A DNA stretch of 64,000 nt from Octopus vulgaris. Lineage: Eukaryota. Positions 4,223 to 57,661 of the stretch are shown piece after piece. The position numbers were made by a program, and so were the translations under genes. The stretch spans positions 83,266,001 through 83,330,000 of the forward strand of contig OX597814.1 of NCBI GenBank assembly GCA_951406725.2. The letters run 5' to 3'. The notes beneath the pieces are model-generated. The model saw nothing but the letters and a program-made list of their open reading frames with translations, made no database searches and was not told the DNA's origin. Each line of letters begins with the position of its first letter. Position 1 is the stretch's first letter.

Positions 4223-4409
4223 AAAATTCCTAAGGGTGCAATGGGTAAATTGTCACCATTTCATATTTTTAATTTTGCTTACCATTTATACACATGCACA
4301 CACACATACACATTGGGAAAACCTCATTAAAATTAATATTAATATTTCTGAAAATATATGTTAGCACAACATTATCAGGACAATCCAAAACTAGTGAAAT
4401 ATATATAAA

Positions 4410-5219
4410 GGTAATCTTTATATCCAACTTAGCATGAATGTCTTGTTAGAGCACTGAATAGTGCATCATTAACCTTGAGAGATCCTCTCATATAGGTGCT
4501 TGGTGCATACAAGTACACACACCAGTTATAGAAGACAAGAATTGTCTTGTCATGGTTGCTGGAATCCCCATATCACATGATTTCACTTAACTGAAAATCA
4601 TCAGTGGGAAGTGTCTGGTCACCACATGCCAGTCAAATCTGACTGCTACAATATATTGAATACCAGTAGCTTTTCAGACACTGTTGTCGTAAATACCCAG
4701 CAGGCTTATCAAAAATTAATTACCTGCAACAGAAGCAGTATTAATACAAAATGGTAATCTTTCTATCCAACTTAAAATGGATGTCTTGTTAGAACACTGA
4801 ATACTGTGTTATTAGCCTCAGAAGATCCTCTCAAAATAGGCGCTATGATTTATGTGTGTGTTTTTATGTTCCAGGTGCCTATTAATACCTTTTGGTATAA
4901 ATGCTGATTCTGTCACTAATAATTAATTTTTGATAAGCCTGCTGGCTATTTGTGACATTAGTGTCTGAAAAGAAGCTCATATTTTATATATTGAAGCAAG
5001 ATTCGACCTCTGATGATTTCCAGTTGAATGAAATCACATGGCATGACAGACAGTCCTCATCTGCTATGATCTATGTGCGTGCTTTTATGCACCAAGCACC
5101 TATATAAGAGGATCTCTCAAGACTAATAATGCATTATTCAGTGTTCTAACAAGACATCCTTATTAAGTTGGATATAAAGATTACATTATTTTGGTATTAA
5201 TACTGCTGCTGTCGCTGAT

Positions 5220-22867: not shown

Positions 22868-23890
22868 ACACACCAAGCTCTCCATTCCCTACTTCCAATT
22901 CCTCCGTCTGTGCAGGCTCTGCAGTGACAACCATGACTTTGAGACTCAGTCTCAACTCATGGCTCGCCACTTCATCCTTCGTGGATATCCCCTTACCACT
23001 ATCTACACCACCCTTAGCAGAGCATATTCCGTGGACTGTGCCTCTGCCCTCTCTCTTCATATCCACCCCGCTGTTGCCCGTTTCCTCTCACCTACCACCC
23101 CTCCACCTTGCCCTCCAATGCACTATTCTCTGAGCCTTCTGGTGACACTAGTCTGACCCCTCCACTTCACACATCTTCCCCAACCTACCCCTTCTCTCTT
23201 TCAAATGAACCCACAAGCTACGTGACCTCCGAGTTCACAGTTTCTTCCCTAACTCCACCTCCCAACCTGGCTCATTCTGCTGCTCCTGCCCATGCTGTCA
23301 CACTTGCCCCTACCTTTCCAATACCACCATCCTCACAGGCATCTATCATCATCTCTATCATATCACTGGCTCCTTTACCTGCAGTTCTAGCAATGTCTTT
23401 TACTGCATCTCCTGCTCTTTCTGTCCTTCTCTGTACATGGGTCAAACAGGACACCAGTTGGCTGACCAGTTCACGGAGCACCTCCAAGACATTAGACTCG
23501 ACAATGACAACCCAGTCTCACACCATTTCTGCTCTACTGGTCATTCATTACAACACCTGTCTGTGTTCAGACTGTTTTTGCACAGGAGCTATCCAGACTC
23601 CCGCCTTCACCATGAACAGAAATTAATCTTCTCACTTCACTCCTTTGTGCCACATGGGCTCAACTCCCCTCCACTCTTCATCTGACTCCTCTCCTCATCT
23701 GACACCTACTTCCTCTCTTTACTTCTACCCACCTCTCCTCTCTCGCCCTGACACCTAAGTCCTCTCTTCACTCCTACCCACCTTCCCCCTTCATTGATAC
23801 CCCCTCCATCCACACCCCAGCCTCCACATATCTAGCCCCTACACCTACATCCTCACCCAACCACGCATCGCATTTAGGCTAAATCCCAGC
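22868..23890 (+). mobile_element. Penelope-like element (Neptune-type) 3' part: RT thumb, Cys-linker, GIY-YIG endonuclease; frameshifted
   Basis: HTKLSIPYFQFLRLCRLCSD..F..RGYP; FTCSSSNVFYCISCSFCPSLYMGQTGHQLADQFTEHLQDIR..PVSHHF..EQKLIFSLHSFVPHGLN* (stop at 23685); pyrimidine-rich 3' region. Confidence 0.9.
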
Positions 23891-28300: not shown

Positions 28301-28361
<61 letters not shown>

Positions 28362-28367
<6 letters not shown>

Positions 28368-28538
28368 CATATCACATTGAAAACAACGGTTCTTGTTCGA
28401 TCATCGAAGTTAAGCATCATTGAGCCTCGTTAGTACTTAGACGGGTGACAGCTTGGGAAGCCTACATGCTGTAAACATATTTCAATCCTTTCAAGGTGGT
28501 GCTCTAGCATGACCACAGTCCAATGACTGAAACTAGTA

Positions 28539-28594: not shown

Positions 28595-28749
28595 ATGGAG
28601 AGGAATTGTACAAAATGTATAAATAGATGATGACTAAAGCACTCGCACAGTTTCAATTACCTGTTGTTATCCTCAGTGAAGACAATAACAACATTGCACA
28701 TCTATATCTATATCTATCTATATCTATATATTTATATATATATATATAT

Positions 28750-29045
28750 AATAATAAATATTAGGGAATAAATCCAAATTTACAGGGAAAAATCAGATTT
28801 AGGATTGAATCCAATTTTATAGTAAAATATAATATAATATTAATTAGAGACAAAACCACTATTATGCAAATCAAACAAAGAAAGACTCAATCCAATACAT
28901 AAAAAATTTTATATAAATTTAATATAATTAAGATATCCACTACGATCGTTTCTTGTCACTTCTATGGACATTCATCAGGTGGTTTCAAGACCTTCTATGC
29001 AATTTTGAACTATAATTAATATTATATTATATTTTACTATAAATA
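28750..29045 (-). mobile_element. ~295-bp non-coding hammerhead-bearing element anchored in (TA)n
   Basis: Contains the hammerhead below; internal inverted repeat 28816-28845 / 29014-29043; a related end recurs at 38715-38790. Confidence 0.65.
28937..28982 (-). ncRNA. Minimal type I hammerhead ribozyme
   Basis: Minus strand ccac-CTGATGA-a-tgtc-catagaagt-gaca-a-GAAAC-gatc-GTA-gtgg: full core, stems I and II, palindromic stem III ACGATCGT, GUA cleavage triplet. Confidence 0.85.
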
Positions 29046-29411: not shown

Positions 29412-30902
29412 ATAATAGGCATGAATATATACTAATAATGGTAAGCAACTTTGCATAAACTGGATTGAATAAAGAGAAAAATGTTAAAGGCAAAAAAGCT
29501 TGAACGGTTTGAGTCATTTCTTCACGTCTTTACCACACTTCAACGAATTATAGGCTCTTACTGTCCTTAATCCTTAGGGAAATTTATTGAATTTAAACCC
29601 GAGAAGGATCCTTTGGTATTCCTGAGTCATTTGCTACCAAGAAAATCTGCATAGACAAATTGTTTTCTGTAGTAGTGCCAGAAGCAATCACAATACTTCA
29701 GACATTATTTAATCAAGAAATACTGAAGACATTCACATTGGCAGTTTAGTTGTGGCACAAAGGCCATTATTGACAGAAAATGTGCCAATAATTGTTCCAA
29801 AAAGCATGTTTTTTGGTCATTTTGCATTGACAAATAGGGTTTTTGTGCATCACAAATGCACTCATAACACTCCTTGTACACTGCTGCATATTTTGACAGC
29901 AAAAACATTAAAATTGGCTATGTAGATTGGAAGCAAATCAAAATATTGCCCCAAAAGACCTCAGAATTGTGCTGCCAAACCTCATTTTCAAGGGGGGTTT
30001 TTTTGTAGTAAAAAAGAGTTGTTGTGCAAAGAACATACTTCATTTAGTAGCCAAAAGATTACTGAATCTTTTGATACCTCATACGTCAAAATTGATTAGT
30101 CAGTTTTTGAATCCACAAGGAACATACACACCACACACAGACACACACACATTCACAAACTCTATCATACATATAGATAATAGGTATGAATATATACTAG
30201 TAACGATAAGCAACTTTGTATAAATTGAGTTGAATAAAGAGAAAAATGTTAAAGGCAAACGCTTGAACGAATATAAGCTCTTACTGTGCTTAATCCTTAA
30301 AGAAAATTTTGTTGGATTTAAACCCAAGAATACTCTTTTGGCATTACTGAGTCATTTTCTACCAAGAAAATCTACATAGACGAATTGTTTTCAGTAGTTA
30401 TGCCAGAACACAGTTCATTAATAAATTTTCTGTTGAAAAATAGGGCTTTGTGCAAAGAAATGGTATCACAATACTTCAAAGACATTGTTTAATCATGGCA
30501 TACCGAAGACATTCACATTGGCAGTTTAGTTGTGGCACAAAGGCCATTATTGGTAAAAAATGTGCTGGTAAGTGTTCCAAAAGCATGTATTTTAGTCATT
30601 CATAACACTCCTTGTACATTGCTGCATATTATGATGCCAAAAACATTAAAATTGGCAATGCAGATTGGAAGCAACTCCAAATATTGCCCAAAAATTACCT
30701 CAAAATTGTGACCTGACCTTGTTTTCAAGGTTATTTTTGTAGTAAAAAAGAGTTGTCATGCAAAAAACATACTTCATTTGGTAGCTGAAAGATTACTGAA
30801 TCTCATAATATCACATACATCAAAATCAGCAATTCAGTTTCTGAATCCATAAGGAACATATGTACCACACACAGACACACACACACAAACTTTGTTTTAT
30901 AT

Positions 30903-30905
<3 letters not shown>
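29412..30905. repeat. Two diverged tandem copies of a ~765-bp unit, possibly non-autonomous Helitron-like
   Basis: ATAATAGG(C/T)ATGAATATATACTA.TAA.G.TAAGCAACTTTG at 29412 and 30177; both end in (CA)-rich + TATAT. Confidence 0.8.
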
Positions 30906-30954
<49 letters not shown>

Positions 30955-31030
30955 CACTGCTTTATTTTGAGATTGCTAGTGTTAACTATACTTATAAATA
31001 CAGACTGGAGTTGTTGTGCTCCAAGTGAGC

Positions 31031-31575
31031 TATATTCCGCTTAATAATTTCATTGGAGGCAATGCAAGCAGAAACTAGAGGAACATAATTAATAACCACA
31101 CTCAAAATCAAATATATACATATATTCTTCTACATTTATAAAACGGATATAAAAAATACAAATATATAAATATACAAATACATATAAATAGATAAATATC
31201 GATGTGATATATAAAACACAGTGAATTTTAGATTTAGAAGTTACAATACATTGGTGTCATAAAAATTGAGCTGATAAAACATTAAAAGGACGTACTAAAA
31301 TACCATGAAAATAATAGAAACATTTTAAAATTCCATCTACGGCTCGTGGATGGAATTTTTATTTTTGTATTATTTTCGTGGTGCTTTAGTATGTTCTTTT
31401 AATGTTTTATCAGCTCAAATTTTTATTACACCAATGTATTATAACTTTTAAATCTAAAATTCACTGTGTTTTATATAAATGTAGAAGAATATATGTATAT
31501 ATTTGATTTTGAGTGTGGTTATTCATTATGTTCCTCTAGTTTCCGCTTGCATTGCTTCCATTGAGGTTATTAAGT

Positions 31576-31583
<8 letters not shown>
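31031..31583. repeat. ~550-bp foldback (near-perfect palindrome) between two (TA)n tracts
   Basis: Arms 31031-31340 and 31346-31583 are reverse complements except ~70 bp (31141-31210) absent on the right; centre AAAATTCCATCTAC-GGCTC-GTGGATGGAATTTT. Confidence 0.92.
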
Positions 31584-31622
<39 letters not shown>

Positions 31623-32204
31623 ATATAGTTGAATAAAATTTAGGTAAAAACCTTGTACTCTATACAAAGTTCATCCTCTGTTATTGGCTACCAAATGTCA
31701 TTGTACAGTGGGACTTATTCATCACTTTGTACAACATACATGCATGGTGGTGGTTGTTTTGGACTCCTTATGCAGAGAAGGACCATCTCTTGTATTTACA
31801 CCTTAGATCTATCATGGCAGCTGATGTGGCTATTTAAACTAGACGATGATTTGAAAAGACACCCACATAGATTGCATGTCTTGATTTGGACCACCAAGAA
31901 CTACAGTTAAGTTCTGATCTTTGTGGATCTTAGAATGTCTCTTGAGGCCTCTGTTAGATTTGCAGACCTTATGGCATATACAGCATGCATGCATTCATCA
32001 ATCAATCAAACAATGGATCACAGATCTGAAAAAGAAGCACACTCTAAAAGTTAGAGCAATAATGCATTTATATGCAGTTAAGTATATGTCCGGTCATAGA
32101 GTGACTAATGGTTCCACATTCATAAAGCTATGACCAGACATATATTTAACTTCATGTAAACACACACACACACACATACACACATTCACACACACACATT
32201 ATAT

Positions 32205-34959: not shown

Positions 34960-35370
34960 ACTTCTGCATATCTTTCCTCCTTGGGACACAAAACTCTGCT
35001 TGTGAAGACCTATTGAGGCAATTGAAATCGATCAAAAATCAATGGAAATTGTAGTTGTGATACCAGTGCTGGTGGCACGTAAAAAGATCCATCCGAACAT
35101 GGCCGTTGCCAGCGCCACCTCGACTGGCCTCCATGCCGGTGGCACATAAAAAGCACCAACTGATCGTGGCTGTTGCCAGCCTTGCCTGGCATGTAAAAAA
35201 CACCCACTACACTCAGGGAGTTGTTGGTGTTAGAAAGGGCATCCAGCTGTAGAAACACTGCCAGATCAGACTGGTGCCTGGTGCAGCCTCCTGGCTTCCC
35301 AGACCCGGGTTGAACCGTCCAACCCATGTTAGCATGGAAAACGGATGTTAAATGATGATGATGATGATAT
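34960..35370 (+). mobile_element. RTE LINE 3'UTR fragment with (GAT)n tail
   Basis: Reverse complement of 35500-35977 and 5268-5800. Confidence 0.88.
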
Positions 35371-35499
35371 ATATATTGGCCTGCTCGCTTAGCCAGTGGG
35401 GTGGCATTATTTGAAGGTTAAAACAATGCGAATGCATTGTGACCAGTGATGTGTAGCAACATCTGATGGTCTGGTCGGTCACGTGATCATGTGATATAT

Positions 35500-38400
35500 A
35501 TCATCATCATCATCATCATCGTTTAACGTCCGCTTTCCATGCTAGCATGGGTTGGACGGTTCAACTGGGGTCTGGGAAGCCCGAAGGCTGCACCAGGCCA
35601 GTCAGATGTGGCAGTGTTTCTACAGCTGGATGCCCTTCCTAACGCCAACCACTCCGAGAGTGTAGTGGGTGATTTTATGTGCCACCGACACAGGTGCCAG
35701 ACGAGGCTGGCAGACGGCCACGCTCGGATGGTGTTTTTTATGTGCCACCGACACAGGTGCCAGACGAGGCTGGCAGACGGCCACGCTCGGATGGTGTTTT
35801 CTTATGTGTCACCGACACAGGTGCCAGACGAGGCTGGCGGACGGCCACACTCGGATGGTGTTTGTTACGTGCCCTCAGCACGGAGGCCAGTCATTGCGGT
35901 ACTGGCTACGGTCACGTTCGGATGGTTTTCTTATGTGCCACCGGCACTGGTACCACAAGGATACAAATTCCATTGATCGAGTAAGTACACTGACATTACA
36001 CATCCATCGGAGCATACTGGCTTCGTTCCTCACGAGCTTATGCATGTCCTCAGCAGTCACGGCCCATGTTTCACTGCCATGTAGCATAGCTGTTCGTACA
36101 CATGCATCATACAGTCTGCCTTTTACTCTGAGCGAGAGGCCTTTAGTCACCAGCAGAGGTAAGAGCTCCCTAAACTTTGCCCAGGCTATTCTTATTCTAG
36201 CAGTTACACTTTCAGCGCACCCACCCCCACTACTGACTTGGTCACCTAGATAGCGGAAGCTATCAACTACTTCTAGTTTTTCCCCCCGGAAAGTGACAGA
36301 AGTTGTTTTCTGCAGATTTTCGGAGGTCAATGCTCCAGAGCACCTGCCACATACAAAAACTATCTTCCCAGTTAGCCTACCTTTGACATTGCTGCACCTC
36401 TTATGTGTCCATAGCTTACACTGGGTACATCTTATAGAGTTTCTACCTACACCTTTTCTACAGATCGAGCAGGGCCATCTTCCTGAGGATATTTGTGGGT
36501 TTTCTACCTTTCTACTTATTAGTACTTTGGTTTTAGCTAGGTTGACTCTAAGGCCCCTCGATTCTAAACCCTCCTTCCACACCTGGAACTTCTCCTCCAG
36601 TTCTGATAGTGACTCAGCGATTAGAGCGAGGTCGTCAGCATAGAGGAGCTCCCAGGGGCAACCTGTCTTGAATTCCTCCGTTATTGCCTGGAGGACTATG
36701 ATAAATAGGAGGGGGCTGAGTACTGAACCCTGGTGGACCCCAACCTCTACTTTGAATTCTTCTGTGTACATGTTGCCAACTCTAACCTTACTTACGGCAT
36801 CTCTGTACATGGCTTGCACAGCCCTCACCAGCCATTCATCTATCCCTAGTTTCCTCATTGACCACCAGATGAGGGATCGGGGGACCCTATCAAAGGCTTT
36901 CTCCATGTCAACGAAAGCCAGGTACAGGGGCTTATCCTTGGCTAGGTATTTCTCCTGCAGCTGCCTTACCAGGAATATAGCATCAGTGGTGCTTTTCCCT
37001 GGGACAAACCCAAACTGCATCTCATCTAAACTAACTCTCTCTCTAATTAGTTGGGCTATGACCCTCTCCGTAACCTTCATTACCTGATCCAACAGCTTAA
37101 TACCTCTGTAATTATTTGTATCCAGGGCATCACCTTTACCTTTGTAGCAGTTGACTAGTATGCTGCTACACCAGTCATTGGGTATGACTCCTTCGTGTAT
37201 CACCTGGTTGACTATACGGGTGACTAGGTTATAGCCGACACTGCCAGATATTTTGAGCATCTCTGCAGTAATTCCTGATGGGCCTGGGGCTTTCCCTGTC
37301 TTCATGCTTCTAATTGCCTTAGCTACCACGGAACTATCAACTCGGATAGCTGGTCCCTCTGTTGGGTCAACATTTGGCAGACTCTCTTTATCCCATTCAT
37401 TTTCTTTATTCAGCAAACTTTCATAGTGGCATCTCCAAACCTCTCTCTTTGCATCCTCATTTAGCGCAAGTGAACCATCATCCATGCAAACACACTTCTC
37501 TCCTACCACATCACGATTCTCTCTCACACACTGTCTTGCAACACGAAATACCTCAAGTCTTTCATCCTCACGGCTCAGAACATTGGCAAATTTTTTCTTA
37601 TCCGCTTCCCCTCTGGCTAAATAAACCTGTCTCCTAGCTTCCCTTTTGGCTGTCTGATACAATTCCCTGCTACCACCGTTCTTCCAGTCCTTCCAAGCCT
37701 GTCTCTTTTGTCTAATAGCCCCGTCAACCACCGTGTTCCACCACCATGTAACTCTGGGTCGAGATGGTACTTTGCTCCATCCACAGATCTGGTCAGTGGC
37801 TGTCAGCAGATTGTCCCGTAGGAATCTCCAGTTGTCTTCCACATTAAGTGGAGCTATATCCCCTTCTATTTCGTCAAAGGCTTCGAGTAGTATGTCTCTA
37901 AATCTCTGTCCATTTGCAGGATCTTTAAGCTTCCAGACCCTTCTCCTCCAAGCTGGTCTTCTTCTGGGCAACCATTTAGCTCTGATCCTGAAGTCGCTAA
38001 CTACTAATCTATGTTGGGGAGTACATTCTTCGCCTGGGAAGGTTTTGGCATTTATAATCAGCCCTCTTTCCCTTTTTCTGGCAAGGATGTAGTCAATCTG
38101 GCTGGTGTGTCTGCCAGAACGGTAGGTGACTAGGTGAGAGGTGGGTTTCCTGAAGTGGGTATTGCAGACCATAAGGTCATTTGCATCGCAGAACTCCAGC
38201 AGCCTGGTTCCCTCCTCATTTCGAGAGCCAAAACCGTGGCCTCCATGGATGCCATGGAAGCCCCTGACATGTCGTCCAACATGTCCATTGAAATCACCTG
38301 CCACGAAGAGAAGGTCACTGTCATTTGTCAATGAGGTAGTCCGCAATAGGGTGTCATAGAATTGGTCTTTTTGTCCTTCCGGTAGCCCTGGTTGAGGGGC

Positions 38401-38715
38401 ATATGCCGAGATGATGGTAGCTGTCCTATGGTGAAGAACTAATCTAATTTTAATTACTCTGTCACTTACTCTGACTACCTCGATTACCTTACCTATCCAT
38501 TTCTCCGCAAGAAGTATACCCACGCCCCCGACTCCGTCAATGTTCCCTGCCCAGAAAATCTTGTACCTGTGTTCCTTGCCCGTGAGGAGCCTAGCAGAAC
38601 CTCCTCTCCACCTTACTTCCTGGATACAGCATACATCCACACGTCTCCGTTCAAGCAGCTCTACAATCTCTCCAGACCTACCTTTCAATGTGGCAACGTT
38701 GAGCGCGCCAACTCT
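35500..38715 (-). mobile_element. Young RTE-clade LINE, 5'-truncated, with an internal deletion joining the ORF to the 3'UTR
   Basis: Long ORF plus 3'UTR repeats and (GAT)n tail; CpGs retained. Confidence 0.97.
35875..38688 (-). CDS. RTE ORF: apurinic-like endonuclease + reverse transcriptase + PHD-like zinc finger (937 aa; last ~34 aa are read-through into the 3'UTR)
   Basis: APE motifs IQEVRW, SAYAPQ, GDFNGHVG, QIDYIL, QHRLV; RT motifs NYRGIKLL, QFGF, FVDMEKAFDRV, GVHQGSVLSPLLF, LLYADD, FRYLG; CSIC..CTQC..HKRC..CGRC. Confidence 0.95.
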   Translation of the reverse strand: MKGRSGEIVELLERRRVDVCCIQEVRWRGGSARLLTGKEHRYKIFWAGNIDGVGGVGILLAEKWIGKVIEVVRVSDRVIKIRLVLHHRTATIISAYAPQPGLPEGQKDQFYDTLLRTTSLTNDSDLLFVAGDFNGHVGRHVRGFHGIHGGHGFGSRNEEGTRLLEFCDANDLMVCNTHFRKPTSHLVTYRSGRHTSQIDYILARKRERGLIINAKTFPGEECTPQHRLVVSDFRIRAKWLPRRRPAWRRRVWKLKDPANGQRFRDILLEAFDEIEGDIAPLNVEDNWRFLRDNLLTATDQICGWSKVPSRPRVTWWWNTVVDGAIRQKRQAWKDWKNGGSRELYQTAKREARRQVYLARGEADKKKFANVLSREDERLEVFRVARQCVRENRDVVGEKCVCMDDGSLALNEDAKREVWRCHYESLLNKENEWDKESLPNVDPTEGPAIRVDSSVVAKAIRSMKTGKAPGPSGITAEMLKISGSVGYNLVTRIVNQVIHEGVIPNDWCSSILVNCYKGKGDALDTNNYRGIKLLDQVMKVTERVIAQLIRERVSLDEMQFGFVPGKSTTDAIFLVRQLQEKYLAKDKPLYLAFVDMEKAFDRVPRSLIWWSMRKLGIDEWLVRAVQAMYRDAVSKVRVGNMYTEEFKVEVGVHQGSVLSPLLFIIVLQAITEEFKTGCPWELLYADDLALIAESLSELEEKFQVWKEGLESRGLRVNLAKTKVLISRKVENPQISSGRWPCSICRKGVGRNSIRCTQCKLWTHKRCSNVKGRLTGKIVFVCGRCSGALTSENLQKTTSVTFRGEKLEVVDSFRYLGDQVSSGGGCAESVTARIRIAWAKFRELLPLLVTKGLSLRVKGRLYDACVRTAMLHGSETWAVTAEDMHKLVRNEASMLRWMCNVSVLTRSMEFVSLWYQCRWHIRKPSERDRSQYRNDWPPC

Positions 38716-38843
38716 AGGGAATATTATTCCAAACTTACAGGGAATAATTCAATTTAGAAATACTAAATCAAATTTCACAAAATATAATATATATATATAT
38801 ATATATAAATTAGAATTGATAAAAGGTGTTTTTTTCCAATTTT

Positions 38844-56416: not shown

Positions 56417-56790
56417 TACAAGGCATGTCCCAAAAGTTTTGAGTCCAACATACTTAACGACATACATGACAATAAGGAGAGAATATTTTATTTCTATTTC
56501 ATTTTTTTTTGACAATATCATACTTAACTTCAATAGTTTTTATAACACTTGCACAACTACCTAATTACTATTTGTCCTGCTCAGTCAGTCACTGATCTGT
56601 AGCTGATTGCTGTTCATCTCAGGAGCAGTTTCTGATGTTGAAATGATACTTCGAATTTGACAACAGGTGAAAATTGCAAGGTTTTTGAACCCATGGGAGC
56701 TAGGGCAGTGTCAAGAAGAAGCAGGACACTGGTACTCATCATTCCACAATGTTTTATCATAATGCTATTTTGCTAATATTGTGAAAACTA
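56417..56790 (-). mobile_element. Old mariner remnant (transposase C-terminus + TIR)
   Basis: Minus strand CNFHLLSNSKYHF..DEQQSATDQ*LTEQDK..TIEVKYDIVKK; terminal TACAAGGCATGTCCCAAAAGTTTTG. Confidence 0.55.
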
Positions 56791-57492: not shown

Positions 57493-57661
57493 ATTTTCAC
57501 AAAATTAGCAAAATAGCATTGTGACAAAACATTGTGGAATGATGAGTACCAGTGTCCTGCTTCTTCTTGACACTGCCCCAGTTCTCATAGGTTCAAAAAC
57601 CTACTTCACCTAGCCTATCTAGTAGATCTTGCTTATTGCAATTTTCACCTGTTGCCAAATT
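57493..57661 (+). mobile_element. Inverted duplicate of the old mariner fragment at 56655-56788
   Basis: Reverse-complement match; encodes VLLLLDTAPV and LLHLAYLVDLAYCNFHLLP (HDNA and YSPDLAPCDF motifs). Confidence 0.7.

What the first reader, a model, noticed from the sequence alone, without database searches (positions are those of the whole stretch)
30948..31612. 550-bp foldback whose turn-point is a hammerhead-like stem III / cleavage site
Seen: near-perfect palindrome with a 5-nt loop, bounded by (TA)n on both sides. On the minus strand the centre reads ACGAGCC-GTA-GATGG, the same pattern as (GAA)AC-GATC-GTA-GTGG at 28.9 kb, so each arm would be the sequence 3' of a hammerhead cleavage triplet. 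Inference: reverse transcription snapped back at the quasi-palindromic stem III, giving an inverted dimer that lost the catalytic core. This would be a mechanistic footprint of how these elements integrate. It is also a strong cruciform/dsRNA substrate.
Basis: inference. Interest (0 to 1): 0.7.

Follow-up and report, generated by a model that had tools for sequence, protein, structure and literature searches.

The report
Penelope-type insertion folded at hammerhead stem
This real but imperfect 550-base palindrome is two head-to-head copies of the end of a common repeat, joined inside what is likely the small palindromic stem of a hammerhead ribozyme; it is likely an ordinary, aged insertion of a Penelope-like jumping gene, with a modest hint about how such elements join their inverted halves.

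Summary
The foldback is real but not near-perfect: 213 of 232 aligned columns match (92%), the loop is 3 nt, and the left arm alone has a 71-nt block and an 88-nt end piece. The arms belong to a repeat family found in runs of six coded organisms. In two of four runs laid, other copies leave the window sequence at the centre and read TGAA-ACGG-C-CCGT-A-GATGG in ribozyme sense (one run with a variant letter). The CUGANGA half was not seen, and no link to a coding region was shown. Head-to-head inverted ends with a palindromic junction and a one-sided tail are already described for these elements, with self-priming proposed. The template was uncut at the ribozyme. Three other family junctions have unequal arms, which favours two separately primed cDNAs pairing at stem III (0.5) over a simple snap-back (0.3). 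Verdict: new member of a known kind; interest 0.3.

The parts
30898..30948 (.). Left target microsatellite: (TA)n 30911-30948 with an interrupted outer end that is mirrored on the right side
   Evidence: (I15)
30949..31036 (-). 88-nt end piece present only in the left arm; genuine family sequence; likely the Penelope-type 'tail'
   Evidence: left-only block; covered in all 4 runs; 3 X3 contigs run into TA at 30951
31037..31341 (-). Left arm: repeat-family sequence 3' of the hammerhead cut site, ribozyme sense on the minus strand; keeps the cleavage triplet GTA (31340-31338) and the stem I strand GATGG (31337-31333)
31137..31207 (-). 71-nt AT-rich block missing from the right arm, bounded by TATAAAAC repeats; present in other family copies, so likely a deletion in the right arm
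   Evidence: table 8 records 5, 22, 23 span it
31339..31347 (+). Junction: 9-nt quasi-palindrome ACGG-C-TCGT, one change from the family stem III ACGG-C-CCGT; 3-nt loop 31342-31344
   Evidence: (loose ends behind 31342)
31345..31577 (+). Right arm: same family sequence, ribozyme sense on +; triplet changed to GTG; ends at a second family end next to (TA)n
   Evidence: (X3 loose end before 31045, 4 contigs, median 9 nt)
31578..31627 (.). Right target microsatellite: (TA)n 31578-31613 plus mirrored interrupted end
28752..29043 (-). Comparison element, a different family: complete type I hammerhead motif 28982-28937 with its own short inverted arm (28816-28855 / 29003-29043) and about 64 nt more on the (TA)n side
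   Evidence: score 65; maximum 40 in 1000 shuffles, 45 in up to 2000 real window stretches

Best explanation
This is a head-to-head pair of 3' ends of a multi-copy repeat lying in a (TA)n tract, likely the terminal repeat of a hammerhead-bearing Penelope-like retroelement, and likely made in one insertion when two separately primed cDNAs paired at the ribozyme's palindromic stem III. Shown: the arms are family sequence; the family continues upstream with TGAA-ACGG-C-CCGT-A in ribozyme sense; the junction lies inside that 9-nt quasi-palindrome; the arms end at two different points. Inferred: the element's endonuclease nicked both strands of the (TA)n tract; each nick primed reverse transcription, one at the outer start (with the 88-nt tail) and one at the inner start; both cDNAs ran past the uncut cleavage site into stem III; their self-complementary ends paired (8 of 9 positions, central mismatch), were trimmed and filled in, which dropped the rest of the ribozyme. 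Since then the arms have drifted 8% apart and the right arm lost 71 nt. The copy is predicted to be inert: no catalytic core, no coding region. Confidence that it is a Penelope-type inverted end joined at stem III is about 0.8; the figure below is for the two-cDNA step.
For:: loose ends behind 31342 in X1 (4 contigs, agreement 0.68) and X3 (3 contigs, 0.98) give GTTTC in the predicted register; window frequency of GTTTC is 0.0011 and of TTC 0.019. Hydra-clade hammerheads mostly have a 4-bp stem III with a 1-2-nt loop, often T before GAA, and nearly all families are listed as (TA)n-inserting. table 5 lists 3 opposite-strand joints (30986/31340 in X1 and X3, 31030/31332 and 31101/31299 in X3), all with unequal arms (short side 37, 66, 41 nt), which a fold at one palindrome cannot make; 2 of the 3 long arms stop within 12 nt of stem III (p about 0.003 under a uniform null). 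Both arm ends recur next to TA in X3 contigs (30951; before 31045). PMC11167929: a Penelope protein nicks and extends both strands, starts at two RNA sites that define the tail, uses mostly uncut RNA and is predicted to be a dimer. The 28.9-kb neighbour has the same inverted-arm-plus-one-sided-extension layout. The central base is C on +, where snap-back of the tail-bearing left cDNA predicts G.
Against: The CUGANGA half and the 5' strands of stems I and II were not seen; the 22 nt visible beyond GAAA in X3 hold no partner for stem II, so loop 2 would have to be long. No reverse transcriptase or endonuclease gene was linked to the family. The interrupted microsatellite end is mirrored on both flanks, while only 1 of the 58 other (TA)n tract ends in the window carries that motif (3 of 60 in all); copy-back explains this more simply. 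Both arms share C at 31271 where 96% of family depth in X1+X3 has A, so they come from one source. The second end rests on 4 contigs of median 9 nt, and could be a recurrent deletion at the TATAT at 31031-31035. The joint count is small, only joints with both sides inside the 416-nt query could be seen, and 135 loose-end rows and 62 variant rows were not shown. The central-base argument is one nucleotide.
Confidence: 0.5

Rival explanations
1. Snap-back: one cDNA ran into stem III, folded on itself and was copied back, through the TA tract and into the flank; the right arm later lost the 88-nt and 71-nt pieces.
For: Junction exactly on the quasi-palindrome; mirrored microsatellite ends, rare elsewhere in the window; shared minority allele at 31271; central base fits a fold of the right-primed cDNA; both missing blocks have TATA-type microhomology at their ends.
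Against: Needs two later deletions in one arm, one of them landing on an end that other copies also show. The 3 other inverted joints of the family have unequal arms. A fold of the left cDNA predicts the other central base.
Confidence: 0.3
2. A DNA-level event after insertion: a full hammerhead-bearing copy was turned into a palindrome by a replication template switch or break repair at stem III, or two independent copies landed back to back.
For: A 9-nt quasi-palindrome can seed a template switch in DNA (established knowledge); the mirrored flank fits an inverted duplication that includes host DNA.
Against: Other family copies have inverted joints close to the same site, and this layout is typical of fresh Penelope insertions. 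Two independent copies would not be expected to meet within one 9-mer.
Confidence: 0.12
3. A foldback DNA transposon or MITE with long terminal inverted repeats in a TA target; the hammerhead likeness is chance.
For: Inverted arms in TA; 12% of random fold centres fit the minimal stem III pattern; the first half of the core was not seen.
Against: No contig of 606 crosses the centre; 7 contigs continue with GAAAC instead; the arm ends are unequal, which terminal inverted repeats of a cut-and-paste element would not be.
Confidence: 0.08

Closest known systems
Inverted (head-to-head) pseudo-LTR insertions of endonuclease-bearing Penelope-like elements (Arkhipova et al. 2013, PMC3846280; Craig et al. 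2021, PMC8557442)
   Same: Head-to-head inverted ends, palindrome at the inverted junction, tail on one arm only, (TA)n target, self-priming already proposed (passages).
   Different: Here nothing but the two ends is left; both stop at the same 9-mer; that 9-mer is the hammerhead stem III; the tail is 88 nt rather than 30-40 nt. The passages read do not tie the junction palindrome to the ribozyme.
Hammerheads of Hydra-clade Penelope-like elements (Craig et al. 2021, File S2)
   Same: 4-bp stem III with 1-nt loop, T before GAA, cut site 100-200 nt from the 3' end in most listed families, (TA)n insertion.
   Different: About 390 nt lie 3' of the cut site here; no sequence match to the listed consensuses was found with short motifs; clade cannot be assigned without a coding region.
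Non-LTR retrozymes and dispersed minimal hammerheads of animals (Cervera and de la Pena 2014, PMC4209133; 2020, PMC7229834)
   Same: Non-coding, type I hammerhead with palindromic stem III; the 2014 paper notes pairs of motifs 100-700 bp apart on opposite strands.
   Different: Retrozymes are head-to-tail tandem units that keep the ribozyme; this copy is inverted and has lost the core.
LINE-1 twin priming (recalled, not read here)
   Same: Two primed cDNAs joined by microhomology give an inverted insertion.
   Different: In twin priming the two cDNAs cover different parts of one RNA; here both cover the same part, which needs two RNAs or a tandem transcript.

Membership tests
Type I hammerhead ribozyme (family source of the arms) | GAAA followed by stem III and an NUH triplet | tested here: met
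   loose ends behind 31342 in 2 of 4 runs (7 contigs) give GAA-ACGG-C-CCGT-A (X3) and a one-letter variant (X1)
Type I hammerhead ribozyme (family source of the arms) | CUGANGA core, stem II and stem I 5' strand upstream | tested here: inconclusive
   Loose ends are cut at 30 letters and show none of these; motif scans of collections gave one chance hit and otherwise nothing
Type I hammerhead ribozyme (this locus) | Complete core in the window copy | tested here: not met
   Neither strand has CUGANGA or GAAA before the stem; no hammerhead family among Rfam matches
Type I hammerhead ribozyme | Self-cleavage | not testable with these tools
   Needs a bench assay
Penelope-like element insertion | Head-to-head inverted, 5'-truncated terminal copies | tested here: met
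   three more such joints in family contigs
Penelope-like element insertion | Tail on one end, from two recurring 3' ends | tested here: inconclusive
   88-nt one-sided piece; both ends recur next to TA in X3, but on 3 and 4 short contigs; longer than the published 30-40 nt
Penelope-like element insertion | AT-rich or (TA)n target | tested here: met
Penelope-like element insertion | Family attached to an RT plus GIY-YIG coding region | not testable with these tools
   No genome is held for this window; the GIY-YIG-like fragment at 23.3-23.7 kb is 7 kb away and not linked
MITE / foldback DNA transposon | Copies share the palindromic layout and equal termini | tested here: not met
   zero depth across the centre in 4 of 4 runs, unequal ends; contigs show presence, not absence
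Non-LTR retrozyme | Head-to-tail tandem units each with a hammerhead | tested here: not met
   Not at this locus; whether the family forms tandems elsewhere was not tested

The most novel reading that the evidence does not exclude
The palindromic stem III that lets Penelope hammerheads work as dimers also serves as the joining site during integration: two element RNAs paired at stem III are copied by a dimeric reverse transcriptase from both nicks of a (TA)n target, and the cDNAs meet and anneal at that stem. The ribozyme's conserved palindrome would then have a role in insertion that needs no cleavage, and stem-III-centred palindromes would be its genomic footprint.
Probability: 0.2. Interest if true: 0.65.

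Novelty: new member of a known kind. Interest (0 to 1): 0.3.

Why it matters
How Penelope-like elements make their inverted ends, and what their hammerheads are for, are stated as open in PMC8557442, and cleavage is dispensable for insertion in vitro (PMC11167929). A family whose inverted junctions gather at stem III gives a countable genomic test between self-priming and two-ended priming: arm ends and the central base. One aged copy does not settle it. The locus would give about 230 bp of double-stranded RNA if transcribed, but transcription was not shown.

Tried and rejected
Other arm copies in the window: none. Metagenome scan with a full hammerhead pattern: 1 hit, L001, rejected as chance because it lies in a prokaryote-type coding frame and has no homology to the arms. 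Viral and prokaryote collections: 0 hits. Rfam: no hammerhead family at gathering threshold in the window or at E up to 10 in 26-36.5 kb, not even for the 28.9-kb motif, so this says little. Expression: no RNA holder listed; X14 is only guessed to be RNA and its contigs cannot show expression. Host gene around the locus: 100 of 217 candidate open frames scanned against Pfam, 2 weak hits below cut-off, none useful. Bias to G-T pairs on the + strand: 10 of 13 transitions, p 0.09, not pursued. One arm more mutated: the right arm has the family majority at 7 of the 8 differing sites listed, but 11 of the 19 sites were not among the rows shown, and loose ends point to right-arm changes at some of them; rejected as evidence. 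Match to published octopus Naiad or Hydra consensuses: none by short motifs. Rotifer junction sequences: the supplement of PMC3846280 held none of the terms.

Full report
Observation. The window is repeat-rich animal-type DNA with LINE fragments and microsatellites. From the look of its repeats I recall octopus; no call tested this. The foldback is real: -198 kcal/mol as DNA, z -34. It is not near-perfect. Left 30949-31341 against right 31345-31577 gives 213 identical and 19 mismatched columns, with left-only blocks of 88 nt (30949-31036) and 71 nt (31137-31207). The loop is 3 nt. Both sides end in (TA)n, and the mirror extends about 14 nt past the tracts. The 28.9-kb motif is a complete type I hammerhead pattern on the minus strand but is not homologous to the arms. 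In the window alone the centre is weak evidence, since 12% of random fold centres would read like a minimal stem III.

The family. No genome is held, so I used public runs. Twenty of 24 listed runs, from six coded organisms, hold part of the stretch, none more than 23% of its words. I laid four on the left arm plus centre, 30950-31365, at 80% likeness: 225, 301, 60 and 20 contigs. No piece spans the stretch, so this locus itself is not shown to be in those runs. The family covers the arm, including the 88-nt piece, and three listed contigs span the 71-nt block. At the centre, 4 contigs in X1 and 3 in X3 leave the window sequence behind 31342. Read in the opposite sense X3 gives GTCTC-TGAA-ACGG-C-CCGT-A-GATGG, and X1 the same with one letter changed in stem III. 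X5 and X14 had no such row among the 24 shown of 159. Depth is zero at 31356-31365 in all four runs. The CUGANGA half was not seen: loose ends are cut at 30 letters, the X3 contigs share only about 14, and X1 is a mixture (agreement 0.68). Scans for a full copy gave one chance hit in a prokaryote-type coding frame and nothing else.

What kind of element. File S2 of PMC8557442 (part 2 of 59 read) lists hammerheads of Hydra-clade Penelope-like elements, mostly with a 4-bp stem III, a 1-2-nt loop and often T before GAA; nearly all these families insert in (TA)n. The family motif has this format. The same paper (passages) and PMC3846280 (passages) describe an inverted 5'-truncated copy at the 5' end, palindromes at the inverted junction, head-to-head arrangement and a tail on one of the inverted ends, and the latter proposes self-priming. 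The neighbour at 28.75-29.04 kb shows the same layout with its ribozyme intact: a 41-nt inverted arm (score 65; maximum 40 in 1000 shuffles, 45 in real stretches) and about 64 nt more on one side. A GIY-YIG-like fragment lies at 23.3-23.7 kb (atlas score 0.96 for residues 50-158; no Pfam hit) but is not linked to the arms. I put Penelope-type origin with a junction in stem III at about 0.8; membership stays short of proven because no coding region and only half of the core were seen.

How it was made. The junction keeps the triplet and stem III, 10 nt upstream of the cut site, so the template was uncut there. This fits PMC11167929 (parts 1-2 of 4 read), where unprocessed RNA is the main substrate, both target strands are nicked and extended, and two start sites define the tail. 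For two separately primed cDNAs: the three other opposite-strand joints (30986/31340, 31030/31332, 31101/31299) all have unequal arms; both arm ends recur beside TA in X3; and the central base is C on +, where a fold of the tail-bearing left cDNA predicts G. Two of those three long arms stop within 12 nt of stem III (p about 0.003 under a uniform null; small n, and only joints inside the query are visible). For snap-back: the interrupted microsatellite end is mirrored, a motif found at only 1 of the 58 other tract ends; both arms share a minority allele at 31271; and a fold of the right-primed cDNA fits the central base if the right arm later lost both blocks, each of which has TATA-type microhomology. 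I give 0.5 to two cDNAs pairing at stem III, 0.3 to snap-back, 0.12 to a later DNA-level event and 0.08 to a DNA transposon. All mechanistic steps are inferred.

Novelty. The architecture is known. I did not find the tie between the junction palindrome and stem III in print: one search gave one review (listing only), searches gave none, and one search gave four papers, three of which I read in part. [quoted passage not shown] PMC4209133 (parts 1-2 of 4) notes the palindromic loop 3, dimer folding, and motif pairs on opposite strands. The bioRxiv retrozyme paper (part 1 of 5 and passages) and PMC7229834 (passages) add nothing on inversions. Earlier notes of this scan report hammerhead-centred Penelope palindromes and breakpoints near the ribozyme in other genomes; they are unchecked leads, and they lower the rarity of this case. 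The double-stranded RNA claim is structurally true but no transcription or host gene was shown.

Verdict. A new member of a known kind: an aged, inert, Penelope-type head-to-head end pair whose junction sits on the hammerhead stem III. Interest 0.3.

Noticed in passing
window 28359-28477 +: Decayed 5S rRNA copy (58.5 bits) directly after a (TA)n tract; likely a retro-copy or 5S-derived SINE head.
   Followed up: no
window 28752-29043: Second hammerhead element of another family with an intact core, a perfect 8-nt palindromic stem III, a short inverted arm and a one-sided extension.
   Followed up: partly
window 28620-28690 -: Decayed hammerhead-like string (CTGAGGA ... GAAAC ... GTC) between two TA tracts, with a small hairpin centred on the first core half; low confidence.
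   Followed up: no
window 23356-23682 +: GIY-YIG-like endonuclease fragment, probably the 3' end of a Penelope-like element; no hammerhead core found behind it by the pattern.
   Followed up: partly
window 29412-30196 and 30177-30927: Partial tandem duplication of about 765 bp, 71% identical overall, ending right at the left TA tract of the foldback.
   Followed up: no
window 35875-38748 -: 957-aa open frame of a LINE with endonuclease, reverse transcriptase and a weak PHD-like match; decayed relatives at about 2.9-4.2 kb and 54.4-55.4 kb.
   Followed up: partly
window 35062-35822: Inverted pair of a common dispersed repeat, about 80-90% alike with a 120-140-nt spacer; another double-stranded RNA candidate.
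   Followed up: no
window 32066-32161; 56679-56787 / 57494-57602; 4408-4756 / 4886-5187: Further inverted repeats: a 96-nt hairpin with sub-threshold microRNA-family matches, a 94% pair of 109 nt and a 71% pair of 349 nt.
   Followed up: no
run X5 loose ends at 30984 and 31127: These look like sequencing-adapter remnants (recalled), not genomic flanks; they were not used.
   Followed up: no
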